A stretch of 64,000 nucleotides of DNA, taken from Candidatus Tayloriibacteriota bacterium. Its GTDB lineage: Bacteria; Patescibacteriota; Minisyncoccia; Phycocordibacterales; PALSA-1337. The position numbers and the translations under genes were made by a program. Where the stretch lies: assembly GCA_052034805.1 (NCBI GenBank), contig JBPOID010000007.1:26495-90494 (forward strand). The letters are read 5' to 3'. Positions 35,743 through 55,305 of this stretch are shown here, one piece after another. The notes below the pieces were generated by a model that made no database searches, was not told where the DNA came from, and saw nothing but the letters and a program-made list of their open reading frames with translations. How positions within the stretch are numbered: position 1 is the stretch's first letter; every line of letters starts with the position of its first letter.

Positions 35743-36045
35743 TCAATCTAAGATCCCACATTGACCCTGATTGGGGATCCAAAGCACCGCTTCAGGCCAC
35801 TTTAGAGTTGATCTTTGAAGATTTTGAGGAAAATGAATGACTCGTCCGTCAGGGAAATGGGTGATTTTCGAAATCTTTCCTAGAATCGTCCCCCATTCAC
35901 CATAATAACGGTGTGAGATAAGAATCTCTGTTCCGTTCGAAAGTGCTTGTTCAAAAGCTTCTTTCGATGGGATATTGTCACGCTTAATCCCTATAAAGAT
36001 ACTTCTGGGATTTGAAGGGTAGCCATTTCGGTCTAGACGTGCCAT
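35743..36045 (-). CDS. Hypothetical protein (GC-enriched island)
   Basis: 100-aa ORF, about 47 % GC, followed by a terminator. No family recognised. Confidence 0.3.
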   Translation of the reverse strand: MARLDRNGYPSNPRSIFIGIKRDNIPSKEAFEQALSNGTEILISHRYYGEWGTILGKISKITHFPDGRVIHFPQNLQRSTLKWPEAVLWIPNQGQCGILD

Positions 36046-36075
36046 ACCTGTCCTTTCTTTTTTGAGTTGATGGGT

Positions 36076-36630
36076 TTAGCGAAGTGCGAGCAGTACCACA
36101 ACGAGGTGAAGCCATAAGCAGTTCACAGGATAAACCAAATCTTGCTTTTGTCCTTTCCACCGGAGAATTACAACGATGGTTTGAAAAGCAAACGAGATGG
36201 TCCATAGAAACCAGCATAGGGCGATTTCATTTTGAGGTTTTGTCCAGACACTTTGCAATGTCGGGATGAAACCAATGGTTATACCGAGCTGGAGCATCAT
36301 ATTGGTAACAGTGGGAGACTTGAGTTTCCACCACAAGAGACTTGCTGTGATACCAATCACGAGAACAATACTATCATTTGTACTCAATCCTTTGAGTTGT
36401 CCTTGGAAAAGGGTAAGTAAAAAGGTAAGTATGCATTGAATACTGCTAATGGTTGGAAGAAGACTCTTCCAACCATCCTTGCTCATCGCTTTATAGGAAG
36501 TGAAATTAAGGAGCGTCATAAAGCCCCATACTGCCCATGAAGTGATATTGGGATTGGCATGTCCTTGTAAAGTCTGCCAATTATAGATACCGAAAGCGAG
36601 AACATTTATAAGTCCCGCCATAACACCCAA
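36076..36630 (-). CDS. Hypothetical polytopic membrane protein, paralog B (partner at 27600..28169)
   Basis: Shared motif GFIPTLQSVWTKPQNE and the same length and topology as paralog A, but in a GC-rich context. Confidence 0.5.
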   Translation of the reverse strand: MGVMAGLINVLAFGIYNWQTLQGHANPNITSWAVWGFMTLLNFTSYKAMSKDGWKSLLPTISSIQCILTFLLTLFQGQLKGLSTNDSIVLVIGITASLLWWKLKSPTVTNMMLQLGITIGFIPTLQSVWTKPQNEIALCWFLWTISFAFQTIVVILRWKGQKQDLVYPVNCLWLHLVVVLLALR

Positions 36631-36788
36631 AAGAATGTCTAGTTTCAGAAAATTTCCTCTGTATAGCCTGACGGGATTGTCAGTCTTTTATCATATTACA
36701 ATATAAATAGTATAAAGTCAAATATACTTTGGGTTAATCTAATCTCTAATTACAATACTTAATATTTCTATTATTTATTTTATATAAT

Positions 36789-37034
36789 CTAAGATTTCTT
36801 CCATCTAGGGGCGAATCTAATCATCCAAGCAAAAAATTTAGCTTTGATTGGACTAGTACCATTTTTTCTCATTTGTTCATAACAGACTTTCTGAAATCCT
36901 TTAAGATCTCCCTCATAACAAAGCTTTCCTCCTTTAAAACAATAACTACAATAACGTGGATTCTCACGATTATCTCCCATCGGGTCCATATTAAATGGCA
37001 TTAGACAACTCTCACAACTTTTTGTTTTATTCAT
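36789..37034 (-). CDS. Zinc-ribbon domain protein (Zn_ribbon_2-like)
   Basis: CESCLMPF...ENPRYCSYCFKGG pattern resembles the family CxxCGMPL...YCSYC. Confidence 0.5.
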   Translation of the reverse strand: MNKTKSCESCLMPFNMDPMGDNRENPRYCSYCFKGGKLCYEGDLKGFQKVCYEQMRKNGTSPIKAKFFAWMIRFAPRWKKS

Positions 37035-37065
37035 GGTATTTATTATATCACTTTTTATATAAAAA

Positions 37066-38532
37066 CTACTCTAAATCAAATCTAACTACACACTTATCAG
37101 CCCGTACTCTCGGAAGATTAAGTCTACTCCATTCGGTATCGCCACCTTTGAGACTTATAGCTTTTATTCCAACTTGCTCGGCTTTGTAAGCGGCCAATCG
37201 GCTTGTATTGCCACGTCTGCAGACAAATATGACAGCTGTATTTTTGATCAGGTTTTTCTTGTTCTTTTTGAGATAGTCATCAAGACTATGAACTGGGACA
37301 TGGATTGATCCAGGAATATGATGGTCCTCGTACTCGCTATCATTTCTTACGTCAATAACAAGATAGCCATCTTTGTGAGCAATTTCTTCTTTATGCTTAA
37401 CTTTCTCCCAAATTTGTTCAGGTGTTTCGGTAAAGAGTAGTGAAAATGTCTCCTGTGAGTCGAGTTCTTTGATAGTTGGAATAGGTGTGGCAGGAATATG
37501 AGCGCCTTTTTCTTTGAGTAATTGCTCGTTTTCAATTTTTGGAAAATGTGACGGGTCGAGGTATTCAAAATACTCATCAATATATGGAAATGGACTATCA
37601 GGACAGACAAATACTGCAATCTTTTCCTCGCCAGACAATCTTTGCTTTGAAAGATGATTGAGAAGACCGACAAGCGCAAAGCCAGAACTTGGTCCGACAA
37701 AAAGTCCTGCACGACAGAGGTCCATAGACATTTTGAATGATTCGGTTGTGCCGATTTCTACCTGATGATCAAGTACAGACTTCCAGTCAAAGGCAATCTC
37801 TCGTAAGAGATTGTTTGTTCGCACCCCGGGTACTGGGTTGTTGGCAATACGAGATACTCCAACTATTTCAATGTCTGACTTTTTCTCTTTGAGATATGAA
37901 CCGATACCAACAACTGATCCAGTCGTACCAAGACCAACTGATAACATCGATATCTTGCCCTTAGTTTGTTCCCATATCTGCGGACCAGTCCATTTGTAGT
38001 GAGCGGCAGGATTGGCCTCATTGTCATATTGACCAGGATTAAACCATCCTTTTTCCTTGGACCACACTTTTGCTTTGTAGATTCCGCTTGTAGGATCGCT
38101 TGGATCAGGACAGATCGGCTCTTTATTGACGATAACTTCGTTACCGAGGAATCGTAGGATATTCAATTTGCCTCGGCTTACCTCATGAGACACAACTGCC
38201 TTGGTGTGGGGTATGCCCATAAGTCGTGCTATAACAGCCAGTGAGAAAACAGTATTGCCTGAAGAATTTTCGATAATAGTATCAGGCAATAATCCTTTTT
38301 CTTTACGGTCCAAAAGCATATTGTATGCAGGCAATGACTTTACATTCGCAAGTGGCAATGCATTCATAAGCTTGGCAAAAATACGCACGCCGTCTTTGCG
38401 ATACGGATTCAGGTGGTCGGGTATCTCTACAAGTGGCGTGTATGGCGCATTGTCGGGGTTGAGAAAATCAAGAACAGCGTCGCTGCCTTCAAAAGTATTG
38501 AGTATTTTTTGTTCGTTAGTTTTTGGAATCAT
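37066..38532 (-). CDS. Fusion of a PLP-dependent cysteine-synthase-like (fold type II) enzyme with a rhodanese domain
   Basis: N-terminal TPLVEIP...NVKSLPAYNML...GTTGSVVGIGSYL matches the CysK/CBS-family layout. C-terminal YLVIDVRNDSEYEDHHIPGSIHVP...FVCRRGNTS is a rhodanese with catalytic Cys. Confidence 0.6.
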   Translation of the reverse strand: MIPKTNEQKILNTFEGSDAVLDFLNPDNAPYTPLVEIPDHLNPYRKDGVRIFAKLMNALPLANVKSLPAYNMLLDRKEKGLLPDTIIENSSGNTVFSLAVIARLMGIPHTKAVVSHEVSRGKLNILRFLGNEVIVNKEPICPDPSDPTSGIYKAKVWSKEKGWFNPGQYDNEANPAAHYKWTGPQIWEQTKGKISMLSVGLGTTGSVVGIGSYLKEKKSDIEIVGVSRIANNPVPGVRTNNLLREIAFDWKSVLDHQVEIGTTESFKMSMDLCRAGLFVGPSSGFALVGLLNHLSKQRLSGEEKIAVFVCPDSPFPYIDEYFEYLDPSHFPKIENEQLLKEKGAHIPATPIPTIKELDSQETFSLLFTETPEQIWEKVKHKEEIAHKDGYLVIDVRNDSEYEDHHIPGSIHVPVHSLDDYLKKNKKNLIKNTAVIFVCRRGNTSRLAAYKAEQVGIKAISLKGGDTEWSRLNLPRVRADKCVVRFDLE

Positions 38533-39484
38533 GGCTAAAAGTAAATTCAGGGTCTATTTGGTTTGTAAGATCACCGAATCGTTCTTTTACAAAACCCTGT
38601 GCGACGTATTTTTTATGTAATTCCCAGATTTTTTTGAGTCTCGCATCTCGATTGTCTGGTTCGGCATTTAATGTACTAAAAACTTTCTCAAGTAATTCTT
38701 GATTATTGATATTAAGTTTCGATACAGACAATGCGGCACCATCTTGGTCGATAGTGCGAATATGTTCGTCATCAGTGAAGAATCCGATGATCTTTTTCTC
38801 GGTAATATGCGATTTTATAAATTCCATATCATTATCATTTCTGATTTTGTTACCAATTACTCGCACGCTATCTGCGACATCGGCTTCAGTCGCCAATTCC
38901 ATGTATTTGGTATAAACCTCAATACTTCGCATGGTTGGTTCAACGATGAGGCAGGTCAGATCGAACTGAGCATGAAGTGTCCCTGCAAATGAATCTACCC
39001 CTGCGACCATATCAGCAATTACATAGCCGTTCTTGTCGTCGGTGTGATTCAAAATGCTTTCGAGGATGGCAAGATTGTTGTGATAGCAACTAGCGCCGAT
39101 GTCTTCTTCTTGGTAGGTACCAACCGCAAAGACAGAAAGATTGCCTCGATGAAGTCCGTACGAGCCGATAGGTGTCTCCTTGATTGATTCAATTTTTATA
39201 ATGTTCGACTTGCGTGTCGGCGGTGTTGATTTGCGGAATGCACCAAGGTTTGTAATGTCGTTGTTACCAATAAGCCACTTTTTTATTTCCTCTGACACTT
39301 TCGGGTGCGATAGATGTTTATCGAAGGGAATACCATCAAAACCAAGTAGCTCTGGTGCATGGATGTTGAGATCAGCATCAAAAACAGCTACCTCTTCGGT
39401 AGTCTTTTTTGAAACATATGTGGCGAATGAGGCGGAAAGCGTACTCTTGCCCGATCCGCCTTTTCCAACAAAGGCGATTCTCAT
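38516..39484 (-). CDS. MinD/ParA-superfamily P-loop ATPase (CooC-like)
   Basis: Deviant Walker A IAFVGKGGSGKST and downstream VFDAD. Overlaps the PLP/rhodanese gene by 17 nt. Confidence 0.6.
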   Translation of the reverse strand: MRIAFVGKGGSGKSTLSASFATYVSKKTTEEVAVFDADLNIHAPELLGFDGIPFDKHLSHPKVSEEIKKWLIGNNDITNLGAFRKSTPPTRKSNIIKIESIKETPIGSYGLHRGNLSVFAVGTYQEEDIGASCYHNNLAILESILNHTDDKNGYVIADMVAGVDSFAGTLHAQFDLTCLIVEPTMRSIEVYTKYMELATEADVADSVRVIGNKIRNDNDMEFIKSHITEKKIIGFFTDDEHIRTIDQDGAALSVSKLNINNQELLEKVFSTLNAEPDNRDARLKKIWELHKKYVAQGFVKERFGDLTNQIDPEFTFSHDSKN

Positions 39485-39487
39485 ATA

Positions 39488-39835
39488 TTAATCGGTGCAC
39501 TTATTACAAGACCCTCGAACAGTAATATCTTCAACCTTATGACCCTTGATCGCTTTGTGGGGAATATGTATTTCTTCAACCTTTCCGCAATCATTGCAGA
39601 TGAAATGATCATGGCTTTCGTGAGCTGATTCATACGCCACAGACTTGTTATCAATCATCACTCTCTTTATCTTCTTGTCAGAGAGTAGTTGCTCGACATT
39701 GCGAAAGACTGTCGAATAATCGGCATCGGGAATAACTTTATGGATTTCAGCAATGGTCAAAAGATGCTTTTTCTTGAGCAATGTAAGTATATGTTCTTTG
39801 TATATGTTTGTTCTCATAATGCAAGTAATTTGCAT
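39488..39835 (-). CDS. Fur-family metalloregulator
   Basis: N-terminal winged helix, HESHDHFICNDCGKVEEI and a C-terminal CNKC. 4 nt upstream of the ATPase gene. Confidence 0.7.
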   Translation of the reverse strand: MQITCIMRTNIYKEHILTLLKKKHLLTIAEIHKVIPDADYSTVFRNVEQLLSDKKIKRVMIDNKSVAYESAHESHDHFICNDCGKVEEIHIPHKAIKGHKVEDITVRGSCNKCTD

Positions 39836-39900
39836 AATAAACTAAGACAAGAGAAAAGTAAAGTTCCAGATAATGCAGGAAAATGATAAAATGACACAAC

Positions 39901-41067
39901 ATGACACGATTACACAAAATTACGCTTGGTATGCTTTTTGCACTCTGCCTCGTATCTCCAGTATTGGTGCAGGCTCAAGAACTCATTCAGGATAAGGTAG
40001 ATATTATTCGAGCAAAGGTGCTTGAAATTGTAAAAGAAGAAGTTAAAAATGTTCCCGGAACAGATATTCGATCACAAAATCAGACAATCAAGGTTGAAAT
40101 TCTCGAAGGAAATGAAAAAGGAAAACAGCTCACCGTCGATAACGATTACTTAAATCTAGATGTTGGAGAAGTCTTTTATTTGAGACATCAATATGGTGGT
40201 ATGGATGGGACTAACTATTATTCAGTCGATGAACCGTATCGTCTACCTCATGTACTCATTCTCGTAGCTCTTTTTATAATTGCTATTTTTGTATTTGGTG
40301 GCATTCAAGGTGTGCGTGGACTGGTGAGTCTTGTCGGTAGTTTTCTTTTGATTATGTACGTGCTCTTGCCTGGAATACTGCATGGATATTCGCCACTCTT
40401 AGTAACGATAGGTGTGTCTTCGCTCATTATCATCGTCGGATCATATATCACGCATGGTTTTAACAAGACGACAAGCTCGGCGGTTCTAGGAATGGTTATC
40501 ACCGTTATCATCACCGGACTTCTTGCTGTCTGGGCGGTCCATTTCACTCGACTCAGTGGCTTCGGTTCAGAAGAAGTTACTTATCTCAATCTAAATACGA
40601 GAGGTACACTCGATGTGATCGGACTTCTCCTTGGTGGAATCATGATTGGTCTCCTCGGGGTGCTCTATGACGTAGCTATTGGTCAGGCGATTTCAGTTGA
40701 GGAGTTGATTCGCATTGCGCCTCATGTACCAAAGAAAACTATATATCAACGAGCGATCCGTATCGGCCGAGAGCATATCGGGGCACTCGTGAACACTCTT
40801 GCCATAGCCTATGTCGGTGCATCCTTGCCACTTCTGCTTTTGTTCGTCCAAACATCGACTTCGAGTCTTGCTAATATTGCTAACAGAGAAATATTTGCCA
40901 CAGAGATCGTCCGTACCATGATCGGTAGTATTGGCCTTATCTTGGCCGTACCTATTACAACCTTTGTGGCCGTTTGGTTGCTTATGAGTACGAAGAAGAA
41001 CAATGTATCGCAGGAAAAACTACAGCAAGAACAAGAGGCGCTGGAACATGCCGGGCATCATCATTAA
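39901..41067 (+). CDS. Polytopic membrane protein, possibly YibE/F-like
   Basis: Signal peptide, about 100-aa extracytoplasmic domain, then 7-8 TM helices. His-rich C-terminus (HAGHHH). Confidence 0.35.
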   Translation: MTRLHKITLGMLFALCLVSPVLVQAQELIQDKVDIIRAKVLEIVKEEVKNVPGTDIRSQNQTIKVEILEGNEKGKQLTVDNDYLNLDVGEVFYLRHQYGGMDGTNYYSVDEPYRLPHVLILVALFIIAIFVFGGIQGVRGLVSLVGSFLLIMYVLLPGILHGYSPLLVTIGVSSLIIIVGSYITHGFNKTTSSAVLGMVITVIITGLLAVWAVHFTRLSGFGSEEVTYLNLNTRGTLDVIGLLLGGIMIGLLGVLYDVAIGQAISVEELIRIAPHVPKKTIYQRAIRIGREHIGALVNTLAIAYVGASLPLLLLFVQTSTSSLANIANREIFATEIVRTMIGSIGLILAVPITTFVAVWLLMSTKKNNVSQEKLQQEQEALEHAGHHH

Positions 41068-41257
41068 TTTAGTATAGATATTGCACTAGATATAGGAACC
41101 TTTTGGAAGAGAAATTATGCCAACATTTGGCTATAAAATGAGAAGCAGGGTTTTTTTGGAATTGTGAGGATGAGCGAGTAAGATTATTTAATGGAATATA
41201 AACAGAAAACCCACCATCTCACGACAGGGGTTCCTGTGCTGAGTTGGTGGGCTATGA

Positions 41258-41665
41258 TTAGAAACGAAGGTCAATCCGTGGAGCTGTAAAAATGAAGCCG
41301 TCTGCAGTCTGAAAGCAAACACATCCATTCACAGCAATACTCAAAGGTGTTTCGATAATCGTAACTTTTTGACCTTTTACGTATTCTTTCCACTCGTTGC
41401 CAACATATCGAACAACATTGCCAATCATCTTGTCTTCAAACCGAGTTGCAAATTGAATTGCTGTAGGTTTGTAGTCACGGATTTTTGCAATCTCTTCTTT
41501 GAGCTCTGGATACAGGCGCTCCATTTCAAGGAGACCGTTGTCGCAGAGATGGTGTCTGACTGAGTTCCAAAGGAACTTTGTTTCCTCGCTTAGCATATCA
41601 ATGTCTTTTCTGGTTGGTTGTTTAATTATGAAAATTGCTACTAAATGTAGTAATATCACATACAA
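41258..41665 (-). CDS. Hypothetical protein (true start probably the internal Met, MLSEETK)
   Basis: 135-aa ORF at the edge of the GC-enriched block. Confidence 0.3.
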   Translation of the reverse strand: MYVILLHLVAIFIIKQPTRKDIDMLSEETKFLWNSVRHHLCDNGLLEMERLYPELKEEIAKIRDYKPTAIQFATRFEDKMIGNVVRYVGNEWKEYVKGQKVTIIETPLSIAVNGCVCFQTADGFIFTAPRIDLRF

Positions 41666-41684
41666 ATAAATATGTCAAGTATTG

Positions 41685-41703
41685 GCTCCGCGACCAGGGC
41701 TCG
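41685..41703. repeat. 19-nt exact direct repeat of the tRNA-Asn 3' end (att-like site)
   Basis: gctccgcgaccagggctcg is identical to 43197..43215, which covers the discriminator, 3' acceptor strand and T-stem of the tRNA at 43198..43270. Confidence 0.8.
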
Positions 41704-41736
41704 GTCATTATGAATTGTAGGAAAGTAAAAATGGAA

Positions 41737-42168
41737 CTAAGACTCAGGAATTTGTTTCTTGTGTATAAATGATACAAAAGAAAAGATAACAGAAGATATA
41801 ACGCTAAGTGGCATCAAGGTTCTCCATATTGAATCCATTATAAGACCGTACTGAGGCATTGTTCCTCCGAATTGATAAGGAGTGAATATCATGATTACAT
41901 AAGAAACTAGCATACCGATAACAAGAATAAAGAAAGAAATCTTGCTCATTAGGGTGATTTTATTTTTGAATGCACAATAAATATAAAATATACCAAGATA
42001 AAGAGCTGTGATTGGAGCAAATAGTCGAGCGAAATATTGAGGATTGGTTATATGGGCAACTGAATATGAAAAATCATCATAAAACCAACTAAACATAATT
42101 ACACCAAAAATTATTAATGCTAAACCAAATAAATAGTGAAAAAATTTAATCATGGATTTATTATACAT
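41737..42168 (-). CDS. Hypothetical membrane protein (4 TM)
   Basis: 143 aa, hydrophobic, AT-rich. Confidence 0.4.
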   Translation of the reverse strand: MYNKSMIKFFHYLFGLALIIFGVIMFSWFYDDFSYSVAHITNPQYFARLFAPITALYLGIFYIYCAFKNKITLMSKISFFILVIGMLVSYVIMIFTPYQFGGTMPQYGLIMDSIWRTLMPLSVISSVIFSFVSFIHKKQIPES

Positions 42169-42949: not shown

Positions 42950-43192
42950 TTAAATAGTAGCAAGATATATCTGAACAGTACCAATACCAATTGAAACAAT
43001 GATCGCAACTATTGCTAAATATAGAGATGATTTTGCAAAACGTTCGGAAGATTCTTCATTTTTCAATGCTAACCTTCTAAGTAGTTCATATTGAGAGAGT
43101 ACACCGAAACTAGGGTCTGAATTATTAATTATTTGAAATAATTCCTCTTCATTAAGTTTTCTCACATCTTTACCAAAATTTGTATTATTCAT
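42950..43192 (-). CDS. Small tail-anchored hypothetical protein (shortened from ORF 42950..43366)
   Basis: The long ORF reads through the tRNA gene. The start is moved to MNNTNFGK immediately downstream of the tRNA. C-terminal TM helix. Confidence 0.35.
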   Translation of the reverse strand: MNNTNFGKDVRKLNEEELFQIINNSDPSFGVLSQYELLRRLALKNEESSERFAKSSLYLAIVAIIVSIGIGTVQIYLATI

Positions 43193-43197
43193 TTCTG

Positions 43198-43270
43198 CTC
43201 CGCGACCAGGGCTCGAACCTGGGACATCCTCGTTAACAGCGAGGCGCTCTACCAACTGAGCTATCGCGGA
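43198..43270 (-). tRNA. tRNA-Asn (anticodon GTT)
   Basis: Reverse complement folds as a cloverleaf. Acceptor TCCGCGA/TCGCGGA, D-arm GCTCAGTTGGTAGAGC, anticodon stem CCTCG/CGAGG with loop CTGTTAA, T-arm CCAGGTTCGAGCCCTGG. No CCA encoded. Confidence 0.85.
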
Positions 43271-43307
43271 ATATCCTCTTTTAAAGAGTATTGCTATAAT
43301 AGCAAAT

Positions 43308-43520
43308 ATGTATATAAAAGTGAAGGTTATAACAGAATCAAGGAAAGAAGAAATAAAAAAAGTCAAAGATGATCATTATGATATATCCATAAGAGAAAAA
43401 GCAGAAAATAATAAAGCAAATAATAGAATATTAGAAATCTTTAGAGATTTATATCCAAATGTTTCTATAAAGATAATAAGCGGTCATCATTCTCCAAGTA
43501 AAATATTAAGCATTGATTAG
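43308..43520 (+). CDS. DUF167 (YggU-like) family protein
   Basis: IKVKVITESRKEEI...ANNRILEIF...ISGHHSPSKILSI matches the UPF0235 pattern ending G..S..K. Confidence 0.5.
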   Translation: MYIKVKVITESRKEEIKKVKDDHYDISIREKAENNKANNRILEIFRDLYPNVSIKIISGHHSPSKILSID

Positions 43521-44144: not shown

Positions 44145-45533
44145 TTATCTTAGGAAATCTTTATAAAGCATTTCCTTTTTACCTTCTGGTATTACTTTTT
44201 CTATGAAAAGCATTCCATCTTTATATGATGCTTTTGTTATTTTTACTCTTATATTTTTGTGAAAGAAAAAGGCAGATGGCCATGTATCATATGCTTGTAT
44301 TTTGAGATAATTTTTATATGGATCATCATTTAAATCTATTTTTCCATCTTCTTTTTCTATTTTATCTGTATATGTAGCTTTTGTATGATCTTGTTCTATT
44401 GCTTTTATTTTTCCATTTATCCAATCAGGTAATATTTCTACTAGGAGATCACTACCAGTTTCTACTAGAGCTTTACCTAATACATCTTTCTTTGGTGGCC
44501 ATGGTTCTACTGAGATTTCTTTTGAAGCTACTATAGGTCCATGATCCATTTCACTATCTATACTCATTATAGTTACTCCAGTCTTCCTATCATCAGAAAG
44601 TATTGCACTTTCTATAGGGCAAGAACCACGATATTTGGGTAATAGGGAAGCATGAATATTCAGAGTTTTTGCTTTTGGTATATTTATTATATTATCGGGT
44701 ATTATTTTCCCATAGGCGATAACGACGAATACATCACAATTGTATTTCTTTAATTCCTTTTCTAATTCTTTATTATCTCTTAATTTTACTGGTTGTATTA
44801 CTGGTATATTATGTTCATTTGCCCAAACTTTTGCTTCGGATGCTGTTATATTTAGATTTCTACCTTTTGGTTTATCTGGTGAAGTTACTACGAAAGAAAT
44901 ATGGAATCCTGCTTTATATAATTTCTCCAAGGTTATTGTGGAATAATACGGTGTACCGAAGAATCCTATTTTTATTTTATTATTAGGTCCTTTTCTTGTT
45001 TCTATTTTTTCAAGAATTATTTCTTCACCTTCTGGTGGGGAATCTTTCACATGATAGGCATTATCTATAAATAATATTCCATTCAAATGATCTATTTCAT
45101 GTTGGAATACTTGAGCCAATATTCCACTAGCACCTCTTTCTATCTTTTCTCCTTTTTCATTGTATGCTTTTATTATTACCTTTTTTGCCCTTTTCATCAT
45201 TCCGTATTTCCATCTTACGGAAAGACAACCTTCTTCTACTTCTTGTTTTTCTTTTGAGATTTTCAATATTTCTGGATTTATGAAAATAAGATCAGATCCA
45301 TCGCCTTTGTATTTCTTATCTGCAGATTTTAATACTTCTCCAGATACTACGAATATTCTAAGACTTTCTCCTATCTGAGGTGCGGCTATGGCTATACCGT
45401 CATCTTGACTCTTTAGGGCTATTTTCATATCCTCGATAATTTCTTTTATTTTTGTAGAATTCATCTCGGCAACAGTTAAAGCCTTTGCTTTTTTTCTCAA
45501 GACTTCATTACCATTTTGAACTATATTTCTCAT
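44145..45533 (-). CDS. Fusion protein: peptide deformylase (N-terminal) + methionyl-tRNA formyltransferase (C-terminal)
   Basis: Def motifs GIAIAAPQIG, EGCLSV, HEIDHLNG in residues 1-165. Fmt N-domain FGTPYYS...NIHASLLPKYRGSCPIESAIL and C-domain follow in the same frame with no stop. Confidence 0.8.
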   Translation of the reverse strand: MRNIVQNGNEVLRKKAKALTVAEMNSTKIKEIIEDMKIALKSQDDGIAIAAPQIGESLRIFVVSGEVLKSADKKYKGDGSDLIFINPEILKISKEKQEVEEGCLSVRWKYGMMKRAKKVIIKAYNEKGEKIERGASGILAQVFQHEIDHLNGILFIDNAYHVKDSPPEGEEIILEKIETRKGPNNKIKIGFFGTPYYSTITLEKLYKAGFHISFVVTSPDKPKGRNLNITASEAKVWANEHNIPVIQPVKLRDNKELEKELKKYNCDVFVVIAYGKIIPDNIINIPKAKTLNIHASLLPKYRGSCPIESAILSDDRKTGVTIMSIDSEMDHGPIVASKEISVEPWPPKKDVLGKALVETGSDLLVEILPDWINGKIKAIEQDHTKATYTDKIEKEDGKIDLNDDPYKNYLKIQAYDTWPSAFFFHKNIRVKITKASYKDGMLFIEKVIPEGKKEMLYKDFLR

Positions 45534-45569: not shown

Positions 45570-47501
45570 TTATAATAAATTCTCTGGATCAACTTTTATT
45601 GATACAGCGGGGGATAGGGAAATGAGCTTTTCTAATAGAACTCTATCAATCCATTTATCATTTTTCATTCTTATTAGTCCGTGTAATACATATTTTCCCC
45701 TAACTGTATGTGTGAATGCTGGGAAAACCTCGACTTCATAAGGATCTAATATATTTTGGGCTATTTCCATTTCTTTTACTATTTCATCTTTATTTCCTTC
45801 TAATGTAAGTTTTATTAGAGTTGAATATGGTGGATAATTGAATTTTTCTCTTTCAGAGATTGTGTCTTTATAGAAATCATTTGTATTACCTTTCATTCCA
45901 TATTCGAATATTTTCTCATCACTTTTTCTTGTTTGTACTATAAAGTCTCTAGTAGTTAATGATCTCATCTTTATTAGTATTTGTAGTATTTTTTCTTGTA
46001 TGCGGAAATCAGGTATTGAGAATAGAGAATCTAGGGATATTATTACAGAGTTTTCTATTTTATCATGCATATATTGAAGCATCATTTCTGTACCGAGTAA
46101 TATACTTCCTGGTTTATTGCGATATTTCTGCAATACCATTTTTGCTATTTTTTCATTTGGTGTATTCTGTGAATCTATACGGAAAACTTCTATATCTTTG
46201 AATTTATCTTTTATTTTCTCTTCTACCATATCTATACCTATTCCCAATACTGCTAGTTTCCAACTACCGCATACTTTGCAATATTCTTCTGTTGATCTTC
46301 TTTCTCCACATCTATGACACATGAAATAGCTTTTTTCTTCTCCTGTCCCTGATTTTATTTTATGAACTATAACTGGCAAACTACATTTATTACATGTGAC
46401 TATATTCTGACAATCTCCACATACTGTAGTTGGTGCTATACCACGACGTAATGCGAATATCATCATTCTTTCACTTTGATCTTTTGTTCTCTGTATTAGT
46501 TCTTCTACTTCTTTTGAAATTATTTTGAAACTAGAAATTTCTTCTTTATTTTCTGTACTTTTCTTTACTCCATATCCTTTCATATCTATCAATGTATCTT
46601 TCGATGTGGAAAGTGATCTAAATTTGAAAGGTGATCCTTCTACTATTTCTCCTTTATTTTTCCTATACAATGTTTCTATTCTAAGGAAATTATCTGAGAA
46701 AAATATTTTCACATTTCTTTTTTCTGCTACTATTTCGGCATAATGTCTCATATCTATATATGGTCTATGTAATGTTTTGTATGCACGACTACTTTCTTTC
46801 TCTACTATTATTGTATCTATATCGTTTCTAGGTATTACTAGGAAAGCTCCAGTCGAAATCACTACTATAGGATGTTCTTCTTTCATCACTGTATTCCATG
46901 TTTCTATCATTTTCTTTTCACCCAGAGAGCTATGAAGTATAAAGGCATAACCTTCTATGCCTTTCTCGAGCATTGAAAAGGCATAATCTGCTTCTTCTAT
47001 AGTAGGGAATAGGAAAAATAAACTTTTCTTTTTTGCGAATTCTTGGCGTATTAGACTTTTCCAATTCCCATAGCGTTCTTCATCATCTCCTTGTATGGCG
47101 TATTTATCTTTCTTGGTTTTATTTGTATTTGTCGAAATCTTTTTGTCTTTTGTTTTTAATTTATTTATATTTTTTAGAATATATTCTGGGATTATTGTAT
47201 TTATTATGCTACCCATATTGCTACAATAATAATCCGCCATATCCTTTACTATATCCATAAAATAATCAGGGAAGAATTCATCGCTTTTTACCTCCCCTAA
47301 TTTCTTCAAAGCAAAAGGACTTTTCTTTATTTCACTTTTCATTTCTAATGCTTCTTTTTTGGAAATAACTATTCCTTTTATAATCTTTTTTCTGAGTGGA
47401 ATATTCACTATAGAGCCAATATTTATATTCTGATCGGTGAAATATGATAATGTTTTCACTCCAACTGTCTTTGCTATTGGAATTACTTCTATAATAAACA
47501 T
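45570..47501 (-). CDS. Primosomal protein N' (PriA)-like with degenerate helicase motifs
   Basis: PriA-like N-terminal 3'BD (MFIIEVIPIAKTVGVKTLSYF...GIVIS) and Cys4-Cys4 zinc region (CGDCQNIVTCNKC...CHRCGERRS...CKVCG). No GxxxxGK[ST] Walker A. The DEEH position reads VEKE. Confidence 0.55.
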   Translation of the reverse strand: MFIIEVIPIAKTVGVKTLSYFTDQNINIGSIVNIPLRKKIIKGIVISKKEALEMKSEIKKSPFALKKLGEVKSDEFFPDYFMDIVKDMADYYCSNMGSIINTIIPEYILKNINKLKTKDKKISTNTNKTKKDKYAIQGDDEERYGNWKSLIRQEFAKKKSLFFLFPTIEEADYAFSMLEKGIEGYAFILHSSLGEKKMIETWNTVMKEEHPIVVISTGAFLVIPRNDIDTIIVEKESSRAYKTLHRPYIDMRHYAEIVAEKRNVKIFFSDNFLRIETLYRKNKGEIVEGSPFKFRSLSTSKDTLIDMKGYGVKKSTENKEEISSFKIISKEVEELIQRTKDQSERMMIFALRRGIAPTTVCGDCQNIVTCNKCSLPVIVHKIKSGTGEEKSYFMCHRCGERRSTEEYCKVCGSWKLAVLGIGIDMVEEKIKDKFKDIEVFRIDSQNTPNEKIAKMVLQKYRNKPGSILLGTEMMLQYMHDKIENSVIISLDSLFSIPDFRIQEKILQILIKMRSLTTRDFIVQTRKSDEKIFEYGMKGNTNDFYKDTISEREKFNYPPYSTLIKLTLEGNKDEIVKEMEIAQNILDPYEVEVFPAFTHTVRGKYVLHGLIRMKNDKWIDRVLLEKLISLSPAVSIKVDPENLL

Positions 47502-47517
47502 GGTATTGTATTATGAT

Positions 47518-48864
47518 TTATTTTTCGCTAAAGGTCTCTATTTTCGCACCTAATTTATTTAATCTTTCTGCCAAATCTTCATAACCTCTATTTATATTAT
47601 ATACACCGCGAAGTATCGATACACCTGGGCAGGCAAGCATAGCTATCATTATAATAACTGAAGGTCTAAGTGCTGGTGGACATACTATATCATTCGCGCG
47701 AAACTTGGTCGGACCCGTGATATAGAATCTGAACGGATCGGCTAGTATTGTATCTGCTCCTAATTTATCTAATTCTTTATAATAAATTGCTCTTTCTTCA
47801 TAAACCCAATCATGGATAAATGTCTGTCCTTCTGCTACTGCACCTATAACTGCAAAGAAGGGTAGATTATCCATATTTATTCCTGGATATGGTTGAGCAT
47901 GTATTTTCTCTTCTAATGCTTTTAGATTTCCTGAATGAGTCTTTATATCTACTAGATTTGTTTCTCCGTTCAATGCTTTATATCTTTTAAGTATTTCATA
48001 TTGAAATCCCATTTTCTCTAATTTTAGAAGTTCAAGTTCTAGGAAATCTATAGGGCAACGTTTAACTGTTATAGATGAATTAGTAACTATAGCTACAGTT
48101 AGAAGCGACATGGCTTCTATAGGATCTTCACTTAATTCGTATTCTATATCTTTATTTATTTCTTTTTTGCCATAAATAGTTAGAGTTGATGTACCTATTC
48201 CTTCTATTTCTACACCTAATGATTGTAGATAAAAGCATACATCTTGTACTTGATAATTAGCAGAAGCAAATTTTATAACAGTTTTTCCTTCTATTCCTGC
48301 CGAAGCCATAATAGTTGTTTCTGTTACAGTATCTCCTGCTTCATAAAGTATTATTTGAGAAGCATTCAATCCTTTATTTGTTATTTTATAATAATCACTT
48401 TTTGTTTCTATTTTTATTCCTAATTTTTCTAATGAATAGAAATAGGGCTTTACTGTTCTTGAACCTAGTTTGCAACCACCGGCTTGGGGTATTTGGAAAT
48501 TATTGAATTTATGTATAAGAGAACCTATTATCATTATTGCACTTCTGGTACGAGATGCATTTTCTTTATCTATTTTTTCTATTTCTATTTTCTTTGGAGG
48601 AATAATAATCAAATCACTATTCTTTCCATTCTTTTTCCATTCTATTTTTACACCTATACTTTCTAATACTTCGGCTATTCTATACACCTCTTCTATTTTT
48701 GGTGCATTTTTTATAATTGTTTTGCCTTTATTGAGTAGAGAAGCACACATTACACCCACTGCACCATTCTTTGAGGTTCTAACTGTTATTTCGCCAGAAA
48801 GCTTCTTTCCACCTTCTATACGGAAATTCAGTGTATTCTTGTCATTTTTCATTTCTTTTTTCAT
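47518..48864 (-). CDS. murA: UDP-N-acetylglucosamine 1-carboxyvinyltransferase
   Basis: EPSP-synthase-fold N-terminus IEGGKKLSGEITVRTSKNGAVGVM and active-site loop AGGCKLGSRTV. Confidence 0.85.
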   Translation of the reverse strand: MKKEMKNDKNTLNFRIEGGKKLSGEITVRTSKNGAVGVMCASLLNKGKTIIKNAPKIEEVYRIAEVLESIGVKIEWKKNGKNSDLIIIPPKKIEIEKIDKENASRTRSAIMIIGSLIHKFNNFQIPQAGGCKLGSRTVKPYFYSLEKLGIKIETKSDYYKITNKGLNASQIILYEAGDTVTETTIMASAGIEGKTVIKFASANYQVQDVCFYLQSLGVEIEGIGTSTLTIYGKKEINKDIEYELSEDPIEAMSLLTVAIVTNSSITVKRCPIDFLELELLKLEKMGFQYEILKRYKALNGETNLVDIKTHSGNLKALEEKIHAQPYPGINMDNLPFFAVIGAVAEGQTFIHDWVYEERAIYYKELDKLGADTILADPFRFYITGPTKFRANDIVCPPALRPSVIIMIAMLACPGVSILRGVYNINRGYEDLAERLNKLGAKIETFSEK

Positions 48865-48965: not shown

Positions 48966-49994
48966 ATGATTCAATTATATATGTCATTATTCAGTCAAAA
49001 AATAGGTATAGATCTCGGTACTGCAAATACTTTAGTCTTTGTACCTAATAAAGGTATTGTATTGAATGAACCTTCTGTTGTTGCTGTTTCACTACAAGAC
49101 AAAAGAATTCTCGCAGTAGGAAATGAGGCAAAAGAAATGATAGGACGTACTCCTGATAGTATCATTGCATATAGACCTATGAGAGATGGGGTTATCGCTG
49201 ATTATAGAGTTACTGAAGCGATGCTTAGATATTTCATAGATAAAGCTTTGCCAAAATGGAATATTTTCAAACCTGAAGTTATGGTATCTGTACCTGCAGG
49301 TATTACTTCTACTGAACGTCGTGCTGTTATAGAAGCAACGATAAAGGCCGGTGCAAAGAATGCTTATGTTGTGAAAGAACCGATACTTGCTGCTATTGGT
49401 GCTGGTATCCCTATACATGAGGCGCGTGGACATATGGTGGTAGATATAGGCGGAGGCACAACAGATGTTGCTGTGATTTCTCTCGGGGGAATAGTTGCTT
49501 GTAATTCTGTAAAATGTGCAGGCAATAGAATAGATTCTGCAATAGCAGAATATATAAAGAAAACTTTTAATCTAGCTATAGGTGACAAAACTGCAGAAGA
49601 TATAAAGATAAATATAGGTTCGGCTATACCACTTGAACAAGAATTATCAATGATGGTTAAGGGACGTGATTTCATAACTGGATTACCTCGTTCTACAGAG
49701 TTAAAGACAAATGAAGTTGTCAAAGCTATAAATAAAGATTTACATAATATGATAAAAGCTATAAAGGATGTATTACAGGAAACACCACCAGAATTAGCTT
49801 CTGATATTATAGATTATGGAATAATAATGACAGGCGGTAGTTCAATGTTGAGAAATTTCCCAGAATTAGTATTCCGTAGAACAGGTGTAAAGGCTAAACT
49901 TGCAGATGAAGCATTATTCTGTGTTGTGAAGGGAACGGGTATAGCATTGGATCATCTAGATACATATAAGAAAAGTATTTTAGCTAAAAGATAA
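48966..49994 (+). CDS. Rod-shape protein MreB-like actin homolog (copy 1)
   Basis: IGIDLGTANTLVFV, DIGGGTTDVAVIS, and 340 aa. Confidence 0.8.
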   Translation: MIQLYMSLFSQKIGIDLGTANTLVFVPNKGIVLNEPSVVAVSLQDKRILAVGNEAKEMIGRTPDSIIAYRPMRDGVIADYRVTEAMLRYFIDKALPKWNIFKPEVMVSVPAGITSTERRAVIEATIKAGAKNAYVVKEPILAAIGAGIPIHEARGHMVVDIGGGTTDVAVISLGGIVACNSVKCAGNRIDSAIAEYIKKTFNLAIGDKTAEDIKINIGSAIPLEQELSMMVKGRDFITGLPRSTELKTNEVVKAINKDLHNMIKAIKDVLQETPPELASDIIDYGIIMTGGSSMLRNFPELVFRRTGVKAKLADEALFCVVKGTGIALDHLDTYKKSILAKR

Positions 49995-50662
49995 TGTTTA
50001 AAGAGTTAAAATCTCTAAATCATCATGCGTATTTTATACATAGTTTCAAAGACTCTTCTTTGCATTTAAAGAGTTTTCTAAAAGATAAATTTAATATTAA
50101 AGAAAATAAAAACCCAGACTTTTTCCATGAAGTCTTCGAAATCATGGGTATAGATAATAGTAGAAAGATAAAAGAGAATCATTTATCCAAAAGTTTTATT
50201 AAAGATGGTAAGAAAATATTTATTATAGAATGTTCTGGTATAACACATGAAGCCCAGAATTCACTTTTGAAAATATTCGAAGAACCAAATGAGAATAGTC
50301 ATTTTTTCCTCATTATGCCTTCTCCAAATGTATTATTGCCAACACTTTTGTCTAGAATATTTATTCTAAAGAAAGATAAAGAAGATAATAAAGAGTCTAT
50401 GATACAAGCTTTGAAATTTCTCGAATTATCAAAGACAAAGAAAATAGATTTCGTAGATGAAATGGCAAAAGATATAAGTGATGAGAAAATTACAAAGAAA
50501 GATATACAGGAATTTCTTAATTCTCTAGAATCGATTCTATACGAAAATGGAATAGAAGAGAATAAAAGTATTTTAAAATCTATTATCAAAGCTAGAGACT
50601 ATATGAACGATAGATCACCTTCTATAAAACAATTATTAGAATATATAGCCTTGAATATTTAA
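49994..50662 (+). CDS. DNA polymerase III delta'/delta-like clamp-loader subunit lacking a P-loop
   Basis: SLLKIFEEPNENSHFFLIMPSPNVLLPTLLSRIFIL matches the sensor region (ALLKtLEEPp...TI.SRC) of HolB-like proteins. The N-terminus has HHAYFI but no GxxGxGK. Confidence 0.45.
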   Translation: MFKELKSLNHHAYFIHSFKDSSLHLKSFLKDKFNIKENKNPDFFHEVFEIMGIDNSRKIKENHLSKSFIKDGKKIFIIECSGITHEAQNSLLKIFEEPNENSHFFLIMPSPNVLLPTLLSRIFILKKDKEDNKESMIQALKFLELSKTKKIDFVDEMAKDISDEKITKKDIQEFLNSLESILYENGIEENKSILKSIIKARDYMNDRSPSIKQLLEYIALNI

Positions 50663-54207: not shown

Positions 54208-55305
54208 ATGGTAATGTATGGCTATAATATGCCAAATACTAATTCCTTTAAAAAATTCAAAGAAAAGATATATGGAATGCTTTCCAATGATATCGGTATA
54301 GATCTAGGTACTGCAAATACTCTAGTTTATTTGCGTGGCAAGGGAATAGTTGTGAATGAACCTTCAGTTGTCGCACTTAATCAGAAAACGGGTAGAGTAG
54401 TCGCCGTAGGGGTAGAAGCAAAGAATATGTTAGGTCGTACACCAGCACATATAACTGCTGTAAGACCTCTTGTTGATGGGGTTATTTCTGACTTTGAGGT
54501 TACAGAAGAAATGATAGCTTATTTTATAAAGAAAGCTGAAGAATATTCCAAGAAAGTTCTAGGTCCAAGAGTTGTTGTCGGAGTTCCATCTGGAGTTACA
54601 AGTGTAGAAATAAGAGCTGTAAGAGATGCTACGAAAAACGCCGGAGCAAGAGAAGTCTATATAGTAGAAGAACCAATGGCTGGAGCTATAGGTATACGTC
54701 TCCCTATAGAAGAACCAATAGGTAATATGGTAATAGATATAGGTGGTGGAACTACAGATATAGCTATTATATCTATGTCTGGAATAGTTAGATCAAAGAA
54801 TTTGAAAATAGCAGGAGATAAACTCAATAATGACATAATGTCATATATAAGAAATGAATTCAAAATATTAGTTGGAGAAAAAACTGCTGAATATATAAAG
54901 ATAGCTGCGGGAGCTGTTATACCAGGTGAATCATTGGAAACAACTATACGTGGTAGAGATCTCATAACAGGTCTTCCTAGAGAAGTAGTGATTACAGATT
55001 CCGATGTGAGAGAAGCCATGGCAAGTTCAATAGAGAATCTAGTAGAATCTTCAAAAGAAGTTCTAGAAACTACACCACCAGAAATACTTTCAGATGTTAT
55101 GAGAAGAGGAATACATCTAGTGGGCGGAGGAGCTCTAATAAAAGGTTTGGATGAATTATTAAAAAAGACATTACAAATACCTGTTTATATTGCTGATGAT
55201 CCTATGTCTGCCATAGCGCGTGGCACAGGTATAATCCTAGAAGATTTGGAAAGATATAAAGATGTTCTAATAAAGAATGAAGATGAATTATATTCTCAAA
55301 AATAA
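54208..55305 (+). CDS. mreB: Rod-shape protein MreB (copy 2; start may be at 54277)
   Basis: FKKFKEKIYGMLSNDIGIDLGTANTLVYL parallels the E. coli MreB N-terminus. DIGGGTTDIAIIS. Followed by mreC/mreD-like/PBP2. Confidence 0.85.
   Translation: MVMYGYNMPNTNSFKKFKEKIYGMLSNDIGIDLGTANTLVYLRGKGIVVNEPSVVALNQKTGRVVAVGVEAKNMLGRTPAHITAVRPLVDGVISDFEVTEEMIAYFIKKAEEYSKKVLGPRVVVGVPSGVTSVEIRAVRDATKNAGAREVYIVEEPMAGAIGIRLPIEEPIGNMVIDIGGGTTDIAIISMSGIVRSKNLKIAGDKLNNDIMSYIRNEFKILVGEKTAEYIKIAAGAVIPGESLETTIRGRDLITGLPREVVITDSDVREAMASSIENLVESSKEVLETTPPEILSDVMRRGIHLVGGGALIKGLDELLKKTLQIPVYIADDPMSAIARGTGIILEDLERYKDVLIKNEDELYSQK

What the first reader, a model, noticed from the sequence alone, without database searches (positions are those of the whole stretch)
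45570..47501. PriA-like protein without recognisable Walker A or DExH motifs
The N-terminal 3'-DNA-binding domain and the Cys4/Cys4 zinc-binding insertion typical of PriA are present. No GxxxxGK[ST] motif exists anywhere in the 643 residues. The position equivalent to the DEEH box reads VEKE. This suggests a helicase-dead PriA retained for DNA or protein binding, or extreme divergence.
Basis: seen in the sequence. Interest (0 to 1): 0.55.

Follow-up and report, generated by a model that had tools for sequence, protein, structure and literature searches.

The report
PriA without an ATP site
This gene is the replication-restart protein PriA of a tiny uncultivated (Patescibacteria) bacterium. It keeps the PriA fold and DNA-recognition parts but has lost every ATP-binding motif, as do all 270 relatives examined, so it most likely restarts stalled replication as a passive scaffold rather than as a motor.

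Summary
ORF 45570-47501 (-) encodes a 643-aa PriA homologue with a 3'-DNA-binding domain, four CxxC pairs and a PriA-like C-terminus. It has no Walker A motif, not even a bare GK[ST], in any reading frame. Profile and structure comparisons show the P-loop replaced by an acidic stretch plus an Arg. The Q motif and the motif VI arginines are deleted, SAT is lost, and the winged-helix domain is absent.

The AlphaFold model (pLDDT 85.5) still matches PriA structures over its full length (TM 0.74-0.77). DNA-contacting elements are conserved.

This is a family trait, not decay. All 120 close homologues and all 150 50%-identity cluster representatives (down to 34% identity) lack the motif. The replaced segments are more conserved than the protein average. 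The gene sits in a priA-def-fmt arrangement in 71 of 74 related loci.

Best reading: an orthologous PriA pseudohelicase that recognises forks and recruits the replicative helicase without ATP. Deinococcus PriA and E. coli priA300 are precedents.

Not tested: whether a second PriA exists elsewhere in the genome, and all biochemistry.

Moderately interesting: a new variant of a known kind.

The parts
45570..47501 (-). priA-family gene, 643 codons plus stop
   Evidence: ORF list. NCBIfam TIGR00595 priA scores 227.9 bits, with a cutoff of 230.35. PDB PriA chains match at E 1e-26. Foldseek to PriA 8fak_H gives E 1.3e-37 and TM 0.74.
47187..47501 (-). 3'-DNA-binding domain (residues 1-105)
   Evidence: Pfam PF17764, E 5.3e-10. 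Pocket equivalents: Y20 (E. coli Y18) is 99% Y; S19 (E. coli D17) is S/T in 93%; K66 (E. coli K61) is K/R in 97%.
47112..47186 (-). Short, poorly conserved linker (residues 106-130) where E. coli PriA has its winged-helix domain
   Evidence: There is a gap of about 70 residues against E. coli residues ~110-185 in MAFFT and hhalign. pLDDT is below 50 at residues 121-127. Mean conservation is 0.20. The best size-normalised structural match is the E. coli PriA winged-helix deletion protein 6dcr_A, TM 0.77/0.77.
46602..47111 (-). RecA-like lobe 1 (residues 131-300), fold kept
   Evidence: DSSP of the model shows alternating strands and helices. It aligns to PriA helicase domain 1.
47034..47105 (-). 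Former motif I segment (residues 133-156, KYAIQGDDEERYGNWKSLIRQEFA): no P-loop, replaced by a family-specific acidic stretch plus Arg
   Evidence: Strand 133-137 is followed directly by helix 140-156. Q137 is 90% conserved, position 142 is E/D in 92%, R143 is 99%, position 147 is Y/W in 97%, R152 is 99%. Net charge of residues 138-142 averages -2.3. Conservation is 0.57 against 0.48 overall.
46791..46811 (-). Former motif II (residues 231-237, IIVEKES) in place of VIDEEH
   Evidence: E. coli D320 corresponds to E (76%) or D (24%). E321 corresponds to R/K (67%). E322 corresponds to E (94%). H323 corresponds to S237 in this protein and in the family consensus ERES.
46746..46781 (-). Equivalent of the PriA aromatic-rich, basic loop (residues 241-252, YKTLHRPYIDMR)
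   Evidence: Y241 is 85%, K242 74%, R246 81%, P247 98%, D250 97% and R252 93% conserved. In E. coli this loop wedges into the fork junction (PMC10175261).
45837..46511 (-). RecA-like lobe 2 (residues 331-555) carrying the Cys-rich insertion
   Evidence: Conserved elements: GTE (E. coli GTQ, T 98%) and PDFRxxE[RK] (P 99%, E 97%).
46431..46448 (-). Motif IV (residues 352-357, RRGIAP), the ssDNA-binding arginines
   Evidence: R352 is 97% R, position 353 is R/K in 97%, G354 is 100%. E. coli R427/R428 bind ssDNA in the PriA pore (PMC13594977).
46257..46430 (-). Cys-rich region (residues 358-415), two predicted Zn sites
   Evidence: Four CxxC pairs, 95-100% conserved and aligned to E. coli C436-C479. 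D363 (E. coli D438) is 97% conserved; H380 (E. coli H455) is H/Y in 97%.
45942..45980 (-). Former motif VI (residues 508-520): five-residue deletion removes the GRAGR arginine pair
   Evidence: E. coli A582-G586 fall in a gap in 100% of family members.
45573..45836 (-). PriA C-terminal domain (residues 556-643)
   Evidence: Pfam PF18074 is weak, 14.8 bits against a cutoff of 26.9. TIGR00595 and NF004066 align to within 3-4 positions of their C-terminal ends, and the fold match covers this region.
44145..45533 (-). def-fmt (here fused into one 462-aa ORF), 36 nt downstream on the same strand
   Evidence: Pfam Pep_deformylase, Formyl_trans_N and Formyl_trans_C. def and fmt lie directly downstream of the priA homologue in 71 of 74 related loci.
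47518..48864 (-). murA, 16 nt upstream on the same strand
   Evidence: Pfam EPSP_synthase, E 3.3e-42. A co-directional murA lies upstream in 17 related loci.

Best explanation
This is the orthologous priA gene of a Paceibacteria/Parcubacteria-type Patescibacterium (candidate phyla radiation), and its product is a natural pseudohelicase. It keeps the PriA architecture minus the winged-helix domain: 3'-DNA-binding domain, two RecA-like lobes, a zinc-binding Cys-rich region and the C-terminal domain. It also keeps the DNA-contacting elements. These are the 3'-end pocket Tyr, the junction-wedging basic/aromatic loop, the motif IV arginines that line the ssDNA pore, GT[QE], and PDFRxxE. Every element that binds or hydrolyses ATP is gone. 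The Q motif and P-loop are replaced by an acidic stretch plus an invariant Arg. DEEH has become E-[KR]-E-S. SAT is lost and the motif VI arginines are deleted. The proposed mechanism is inferred by analogy with ATPase-dead E. coli PriA and with Deinococcus PriA. The protein binds an abandoned fork or D-loop through the 3'BD and lobe 1, and threads or clamps lagging-strand ssDNA between lobe 2, the Cys-rich region and the C-terminal domain. It thereby presents a surface that recruits the replicative helicase, directly or through an unidentified partner. It cannot translocate or unwind a duplex lagging arm, so restart would be limited to forks that already expose lagging-strand ssDNA, or another helicase would do the remodelling. 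Shown here: homology, fold, loss of motifs, conservation, synteny. Inferred: no ATPase activity, fork binding, a restart role.
For: Homology to PriA: TIGR00595 227.9 bits. PDB PriA chains at E 1e-26. hhalign probability 99.9 over 521 columns. AF2 model pLDDT 85.5 and pTM 0.84. Foldseek finds PriA chains as the top nine hits, E 1e-26 to 1e-37, TM 0.68-0.77; the next family (Mfd) is at 4e-7.

Motif loss: there is no GK[ST] anywhere in the protein. The motif table over 143 diverse members plus E. coli PriA shows the losses listed above. The beta1-alpha1 loop is 2 residues long. The TIGR00595 match starts at model position 17, after the Walker A region.

Selection, not decay: all 120 homologues at 53-75% identity are close to full length, except one partial of 555 aa, and lack Walker A. 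All 150 representatives of 50%-identity clusters, down to 34% identity, lack it at the relevant position. The former motif I and II segments are more conserved (0.57, 0.61) than the protein mean (0.48). R143 and R152 are 99% conserved.

DNA-binding and switch elements are retained.

Orthology: def and fmt lie directly downstream in 71 of 74 loci. From my own knowledge, priA-def-fmt is the arrangement of bona fide priA in Bacillus and many other bacteria.

Precedents: E. coli K230R/K230A PriA supports restart in vivo and DnaB loading in vitro (PMC5778457; PMC10175261). D. radiodurans PriA lacks ATPase and helicase activity but binds forks and DnaB (PMC4504706).
Against: No biochemistry exists for this family. 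Whether the genome holds a second, canonical PriA or a substitute helicase (Rep, PcrA, RecG) could not be checked beyond the 64-kb window and +/-6 kb around 80 homologues. A second, weaker nucleotide site has been proposed for E. coli PriA but never located (PMC5778457), and it cannot be excluded here. The winged-helix domain, which contacts parental duplex in E. coli, is missing, so fork recognition may differ. D17 of the 3'-end pocket is Ser/Thr here. No partner protein (PriB, DnaT, DnaD) was identified.
Confidence: 0.75

Rival explanations
1. Cryptic ATPase. The protein still binds and hydrolyses a nucleotide, using non-canonical residues such as R143, K148, R152, E234, E236 and R513, or a second site, and still works as a motor.
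For: In the MAFFT alignment an invariant Arg (R143, 99%) sits in the first turn of helix alpha1, where the Walker A Lys would be. An acidic residue is kept at the Walker B Asp position (E/D 100%), and E236 is 94% conserved. A second nucleotide site has been proposed for E. coli PriA (PMC5778457).
Against: There is no glycine-rich loop. Only two residues join beta1 to alpha1. The segment carries a mean net charge of -2.3, which would repel phosphate. The catalytic Glu position is Lys/Arg in 67% of members. The Q motif and both motif VI arginines are deleted. K230R alone abolishes ATPase in E. coli PriA, and Deinococcus PriA, which carries Arg in its GKT sequence and has poor matches to the motif I and II consensus, is inactive (PMC4504706). 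hhalign deletes the whole Walker A segment.
Confidence: 0.05
2. Neofunctionalised paralogue. A canonical PriA elsewhere in the genome does restart, and this protein has another DNA-structure-binding job.
For: The whole genome could not be inspected. The score falls just under the TIGR00595 equivalog cutoff (227.9 against 230.35). Sources name it inconsistently, as 'hypothetical protein' or 'primosomal protein N''.
Against: It occupies a conserved priA-def-fmt position in 71 of 74 loci, which is the arrangement I recall for bona fide priA in Bacillus and others. No second PriA-like hit was found in the window or in any flank. These genomes are small and reduced; contigs of 0.5-0.9 Mb carry the gene. 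All PriA-specific domains are retained and conserved.
Confidence: 0.07
3. A decaying relic or pseudogene on its way to loss in a reduced genome, or an assembly or frameshift artefact hiding the motifs.
For: Patescibacteria have lost many genes. The ATPase motifs are absent.
Against: Intact ORFs of similar length (mostly about 620-660 aa) occur in at least 270 sequence clusters. Dozens of residues are invariant, and the replaced segments are the best conserved. An identical protein occurs on independent assemblies. No Walker A is encoded in any frame. The fold prediction is confident.
Confidence: 0.02

Closest known systems
Canonical PriA (primosomal protein N', E. coli / K. pneumoniae; PDB 4NL4, 6DGD, 8FAK)
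   Same: The domain order matches: 3'BD, RecA lobe 1, RecA lobe 2 with a Cys4+Cys4 insertion, then the C-terminal domain. The full-length fold match has TM 0.74-0.77. Conserved features include the 3'-pocket Tyr, the junction loop, the motif IV arginines, GT[QE], PDFRxxE and all eight cysteines.
   Different: There is no winged-helix domain, and no Q motif, P-loop, DEEH, SAT or motif VI arginines. Identity is about 20%. The E. coli gene does not sit next to def-fmt.
Deinococcus radiodurans PriA pseudohelicase (Lopper et al. 2015, PMC4504706)
   Same: It is a natural PriA with degenerate motifs I and II, predicted there, and shown for that protein, to lack ATPase and helicase activity while keeping fork binding. 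In the MAFFT alignment this family also has Arg at the Walker A Lys position.
   Different: As that paper describes them, the Deinococcus-Thermus proteins have poor matches to the motif I and II consensus, with Arg in place of Lys in the GKT sequence. Here the loop itself is gone and replaced by an acidic stretch, motifs Q and VI are deleted, and the WH domain is missing. The lineage is different (Patescibacteria). Whether the two losses are independent was not tested.
E. coli PriA K230R/K230A (priA300), an engineered ATPase-dead PriA
   Same: This is the functional analogue. It has no ATPase, helicase or translocase activity, yet it is near wild type in vivo and competent for PriA-PriB-DnaT-dependent DnaB loading in vitro.
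   Different: It is a single-residue laboratory mutant in an otherwise canonical protein. It depends on PriB and DnaT, for which no homologues were identified here. It fails in the PriA-PriC pathway.
E. coli PriA winged-helix deletion protein (PDB 6DCR)
   Same: This is the best length-normalised structural match (TMq 0.77, TMt 0.77, 639 residues against 643 here). The natural protein has the architecture of this engineered deletion.
   Different: 6DCR keeps all ATPase motifs.

Membership tests
PriA (primosomal protein N' / replication restart helicase) | N-terminal 3'-DNA-binding domain (PF17764) | tested here: met
   39.5 bits against a cutoff of 22.7, residues 16-105.
PriA (primosomal protein N' / replication restart helicase) | Two RecA-like SF2 lobes in the PriA arrangement | tested here: met
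   The AF2 model (pLDDT 85.5) matches nine PriA chains at E 1e-26 to 1e-37 and TM 0.68-0.77.
PriA (primosomal protein N' / replication restart helicase) | Cys-rich region CxxC x4 (two Zn sites) inserted in lobe 2 | tested here: met
   C361/364/370/373/395/398/408/411 align to E. coli C436-C479 and are 95-100% conserved.
PriA (primosomal protein N' / replication restart helicase) | PriA C-terminal domain | tested here: met
   Pfam PF18074 is below its cutoff (14.8 against 26.9). TIGR00595 aligns to position 505 of 509 and NF004066 to 785 of 788, and the fold match spans the region.
PriA (primosomal protein N' / replication restart helicase) | Score above the curated equivalog cutoff (TIGR00595) | tested here: not met
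   227.9 bits against a cutoff of 230.35. The match starts at model position 17, so the Walker A part of the model is unmatched.
PriA (primosomal protein N' / replication restart helicase) | Motif I / Walker A GxGKT | tested here: not met
   No GK[ST] in the protein or in any frame. Absent in 270 relatives. The beta1-alpha1 loop is 2 residues long.
PriA (primosomal protein N' / replication restart helicase) | Motif II / Walker B DEEH | tested here: not met
   EKES in this protein; family consensus E-[RK]-E-S.
PriA (primosomal protein N' / replication restart helicase) | Motif VI arginines (GRAGR) | tested here: not met
   A five-residue deletion in 100% of members.
PriA (primosomal protein N' / replication restart helicase) | Winged-helix DNA-binding domain after the 3'BD | tested here: not met
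   A gap of about 70 residues; a 25-residue low-confidence linker takes its place.
PriA (primosomal protein N' / replication restart helicase) | DNA-dependent ATPase and 3'-5' helicase activity; primosome assembly | not testable with these tools
   Needs purified protein.
PriA pseudohelicase (Deinococcus-Thermus type) | Derived from PriA, with catalytic residues of motifs I and II lost | tested here: met
PriA pseudohelicase (Deinococcus-Thermus type) | Motif I still present as a GKT-type sequence, with Lys replaced by Arg | tested here: inconclusive
   MAFFT puts the 99%-conserved R143 under K230, but there is no P-loop around it, and hhalign deletes the segment.
PriA pseudohelicase (Deinococcus-Thermus type) | Shared ancestry with Deinococcus-Thermus PriA | not tested
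The lineages differ (Patescibacteria MAGs).
PriA pseudohelicase (Deinococcus-Thermus type) | No ATPase or unwinding activity; binds fork DNA and DnaB | not testable with these tools
   These are biochemical properties (PMC4504706).

The most novel reading that the evidence does not exclude
A whole class-level radiation of candidate-phyla bacteria restarts replication with a PriA that has not merely lost ATPase activity. It has rebuilt the former nucleotide pocket into a new, strongly conserved acidic-plus-arginine element: Q137-x2-[DE]2-3-R143-x3-Y-[KR]-x3-R152-E-x-F-A, together with E-[KR]-E-S. That element could act as a built-in nucleotide mimic that locks the two lobes in the fork-binding state. 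Alternatively it could be a new docking site for the replicative helicase or its loader. Either way, PriA would act alone as an ATP-independent loader adaptor. The loss would be independent of the one in Deinococcus, making ATP-free PriA a recurrent evolutionary solution.
Probability: 0.2. Interest if true: 0.6.

Novelty: new variant of a known kind. Interest (0 to 1): 0.45.

Why it matters
[quoted passage not shown] Here a second and much larger lineage has a PriA with the ATP site removed outright and the winged-helix domain missing. At least 150 clusters at 50% identity, all from Patescibacteria-type metagenome genomes, share this state under clear purifying selection. This is a natural experiment showing that fork recognition and scaffolding, not motor activity, is the indispensable part of PriA. 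It also yields a minimal PriA of about 630 aa for structural work on how PriA recruits the replicative helicase in bacteria that lack PriB, DnaT or DnaD, which the review lists as an open question. On the practical side, curated models only just miss these proteins (TIGR00595 falls 2.4 bits short), so they are annotated inconsistently as hypothetical proteins or as helicases.

Tried and rejected
1. Hidden motifs: regex searches of the protein and of all six frames found none.
2. Three independent alignments were run to look for displaced motifs. MAFFT and hhalign disagree on the register of residues 133-147. hhalign aligns YAVQGD with E. coli YAVSGE (190-196) and deletes the Walker A block. 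MAFFT puts R143 under K230. I prefer MAFFT because the model has strand 133-137 followed by helix 140-156, but the R143 = K230 equivalence stays tentative.
3. A Foldseek search of the AlphaFold database (afdb50), meant to give taxonomic spread, was not available.
4. Cluster look-ups of the ten most divergent representatives gave no organism names. The breadth beyond Taylorbacteria, Paceibacterota, Parcubacteria and Minisyncoccia titles is therefore unknown. The many 'Candidatus Saccharibacteria' titles come from bulk-named MAG sets, and I do not rely on them.
5. Five literature searches found no description of this family's motif loss. The library is incomplete, so this is not proof of novelty.
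6. The search for a second PriA or another restart helicase was limited to the window and the flanks of related loci. Only a DEAD-box RNA-type helicase and a short holB-like gene turned up.
7. Model coordinates are not exposed, so no pocket geometry or salt-bridge distances could be measured.
8. A covariation check between position 235 and the acidic positions 141/142 showed no informative pattern beyond overall conservation.
Full report
**1. The observation**

The region 45570..47501 holds one ORF of 643 codons on the minus strand.
- Pfam finds the PriA 3'-DNA-binding domain at residues 16-105 (E 5.3e-10, above the curated cutoff) and a weak PriA C-terminal domain.
- NCBIfam's PriA equivalog TIGR00595 scores 227.9 bits, just under its 230.35 cutoff. 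The match begins at model position 17, so the first stretch of the model, which holds the Walker A, has no counterpart.
- The solved PriA structures of Klebsiella and E. coli are the only significant PDB sequence matches (E 1e-26, residues 152-572).
- The protein has four CxxC pairs and no GK[ST] tripeptide at all. No Walker A is encoded in any of the six frames.
The one amendment is that DEEH aligns with EKES (residues 234-237), not VEKE.
- As a control, a DEAD-box helicase in the same window keeps ANTGTGKT, SAT and HRIGRTGR.

**2. What is missing and what is kept**

I aligned the protein with E. coli PriA (taken from NC_000913) and with family members: 12 and 143 divergent ones.

Missing, relative to E. 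coli PriA:
- the winged-helix domain (a gap of about 70 residues);
- the Q motif;
- the P-loop (LLAGVTGSGKTEVY against AIQ-GDDEERYGNW);
- DEEH (now E-[RK]-E-S);
- SAT (family consensus DTL; DNF in this protein);
- the KGH of motif V;
- the GRAGR arginines of motif VI, where a five-residue deletion occurs in 100% of members.

A profile-profile comparison (hhalign, probability 99.9 over 521 columns) also finds no P-loop. It deletes the whole Walker A block.

Kept and conserved:
- the pocket Tyr of the 3'BD (Y20, 99%);
- a basic/aromatic loop at the position of the PriA aromatic-rich loop (R246 81%, P247 98%, D250 97%, R252 93%);
- motif IV R-[RK]-G (97%, 97%, 100%);
- GTE;
- PDFRxxE;
- all eight cysteines (95-100%);
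- D363 and H380, which correspond to E. coli D438 and H455 of the Cys-rich region.

In SF2 helicases the lost motifs are the nucleotide-binding ones (established knowledge). For PriA in particular, the retained loop and the motif IV arginines are shown to contact fork DNA and pore ssDNA (PMC10175261; PMC13594977).

**3. Structure**

An AlphaFold2 model built on 50 homologues is confident (mean pLDDT 85.5, pTM 0.84). The low-confidence segments are 121-127, in the linker that replaces the winged helix, and 315-323.

Strand 133-137 runs almost directly into helix 140-156. That leaves two residues where a P-loop needs about eight.

Foldseek against the PDB returns PriA chains as the nine best hits (E 1e-26 to 1.3e-37, TM 0.68-0.77). 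The best length-normalised match is the engineered E. coli PriA winged-helix deletion protein 6DCR (0.77/0.77). The next family, Mfd, is at E 4e-7.

**4. A family trait under selection**

- The protein database returns 873 hits. The best 120 are 53-75% identical over 99-100% of the query, apart from one partial entry (89%). The organism names that sources supply are Patescibacteria, Paceibacterota or Parcubacteria MAGs. None has [AG]xxxxGK[ST].
- An exhaustive HMMER search of 1.84 billion cluster representatives gives 1786 hits at E <= 1e-30. The 150 listed (34-61% identity, mostly about 620-660 aa, plus a few shorter fragments) also lack a Walker A. The only three regex matches are at unrelated positions.
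- The former motif I and II segments are more conserved (0.57 and 0.61) than the protein average (0.48).
- They define a family signature: Q137 (90%), an acidic run with mean net charge -2.3, R143 (99%), Y/W147, K/R148, R152 (99%), F155 and A156.
- An identical protein is found on independent assemblies.

This rules out a pseudogene or an assembly artefact.

**5. Orthology and context**

In the window the gene lies 16 nt downstream of murA and 36 nt upstream of a def-fmt ORF, all on the minus strand.

A scan of one genome per GTDB species gave 80 loci, titled Candidatus Taylorbacteria, Paceibacterota, Parcubacteria, Minisyncoccia or Patescibacteria group. In 71 of the 74 loci with enough downstream sequence, def and fmt follow directly on the same strand. 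From my own knowledge, priA-def-fmt is the arrangement of bona fide priA in Bacillus and many other bacteria. I could not verify that with the tools here, and E. coli differs.

No second PriA-like sequence occurs in the window or in any flank. The rest of the window holds housekeeping genes and no other restart factor. Whole genomes could not be scanned.

**6. Mechanism**

Established facts from the literature:
- E. coli PriA K230R/K230A lacks ATPase, helicase and translocase activity, yet it behaves nearly like wild type in vivo and loads DnaB through PriB and DnaT in vitro. Helicase activity is needed only in the PriA-PriC pathway and in some special cases (PMC5778457; PMC10175261).
- Fork binding itself pivots the Cys-rich region, forms an ssDNA pore with lobe 2 and the C-terminal domain, and exposes the partner docking site. 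The motif IV arginines are required for that state.
- D. radiodurans PriA is an experimentally shown pseudohelicase that still binds forks and DnaB (PMC4504706).

The elements needed for the ATP-independent part of this cycle are exactly the ones retained here. I therefore infer, with about 0.75 confidence, that this protein is a structure-specific fork-binding adaptor that recruits the replicative helicase without unwinding. It would act on forks that already expose lagging-strand ssDNA, or with help from another helicase. The conserved acidic-plus-Arg element may simply stabilise the empty pocket, or it may have acquired a new role. That part is speculation.

**7. Rivals**

- A cryptic ATPase is unlikely (0.05). 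There is no loop, the segment is acidic, and the arginine fingers are deleted.
- A neofunctionalised paralogue alongside a canonical PriA is not excluded (0.07). It is disfavoured by synteny and by the small size of these genomes.
- Gene decay is effectively refuted (0.02).

**8. Comparison with what is known, and novelty**

The thing is a PriA by fold, domain order and context. It fails four sequence features of canonical PriA: motifs I, II and VI, and the winged helix. It also falls just below the curated equivalog cutoff.

It works like the Deinococcus pseudohelicase and like priA300. It differs from the Deinococcus-Thermus proteins, which that paper describes as poor matches to the motif I and II consensus with Arg replacing Lys in the GKT sequence. 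Here the P-loop and motifs Q and VI are physically removed, the winged helix is absent, and the lineage is different.

Five literature searches found no description of this. The 2017 review names Deinococcus as the only exception. I rate it a new variant of a known kind, of moderate interest (0.45). It would interest a replication-restart specialist and is useful as a minimal natural PriA scaffold. The principle that PriA can work without its motor is already established.

Noticed in passing
window 44145-45533 (-): Peptide deformylase and methionyl-tRNA formyltransferase are fused into one 462-aa ORF. In 69 of 71 related loci they are separate adjacent genes. Only the two closest relatives (L003, L004) share the fusion.
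   Followed up: partly
window 47518-48864 (-); loci L003-L082 upstream of priA: The gene upstream of priA is an EPSP-synthase-fold (murA-type) gene in 59 of 67 loci, but it comes in two very different forms. In 17 loci it is co-directional and 66-80% identical to the window's MurA. In 42 loci it is on the opposite strand and only 25-31% identical. This looks like replacement by a distant homologue at the same position.
   Followed up: partly
window 49994-50662 (+): A short (222 aa) holB-like gene matches only part of the DNA polymerase III delta' domain (PF13177 positions 64-156 of 161). Its start overlaps the stop of the upstream mreB-like gene.
   Followed up: no
window 48966-49994 (+) and 54208-55305 (+): Two MreB/actin-family paralogues lie within 6 kb of each other. 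The second is followed by mreC and a PBP2-type transpeptidase.
   Followed up: no
window about 36000-42000: G+C rises to 0.39-0.41 here, against about 0.31 elsewhere. The stretch carries FUR, CbiA-family, PALP+rhodanese and YibE/F genes and may be horizontally acquired.
   Followed up: no
window 4643-6433 (+): The alanyl-tRNA synthetase is only 596 aa. It ends right after the second additional domain and has no C-terminal domain.
   Followed up: no
window 1378-2223 (+): A 281-aa protein combines an ATP-cone, an Mrr-type restriction endonuclease catalytic domain and an AF1548-like C-terminal domain, next to a uracil-DNA glycosylase gene.
   Followed up: no
window 6485-7627 (+) and 7640-9022 (+): Two adjacent ORFs of 380 and 460 aa have no Pfam match at E <= 0.001.
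   Followed up: no
window 43198-43270 (-): A single tRNA gene (Rfam, 69.7 bits) lies inside the mechanically listed ORF 42950-43366 (TTG start, no Pfam hit). That ORF is therefore probably not a gene.
   Followed up: no
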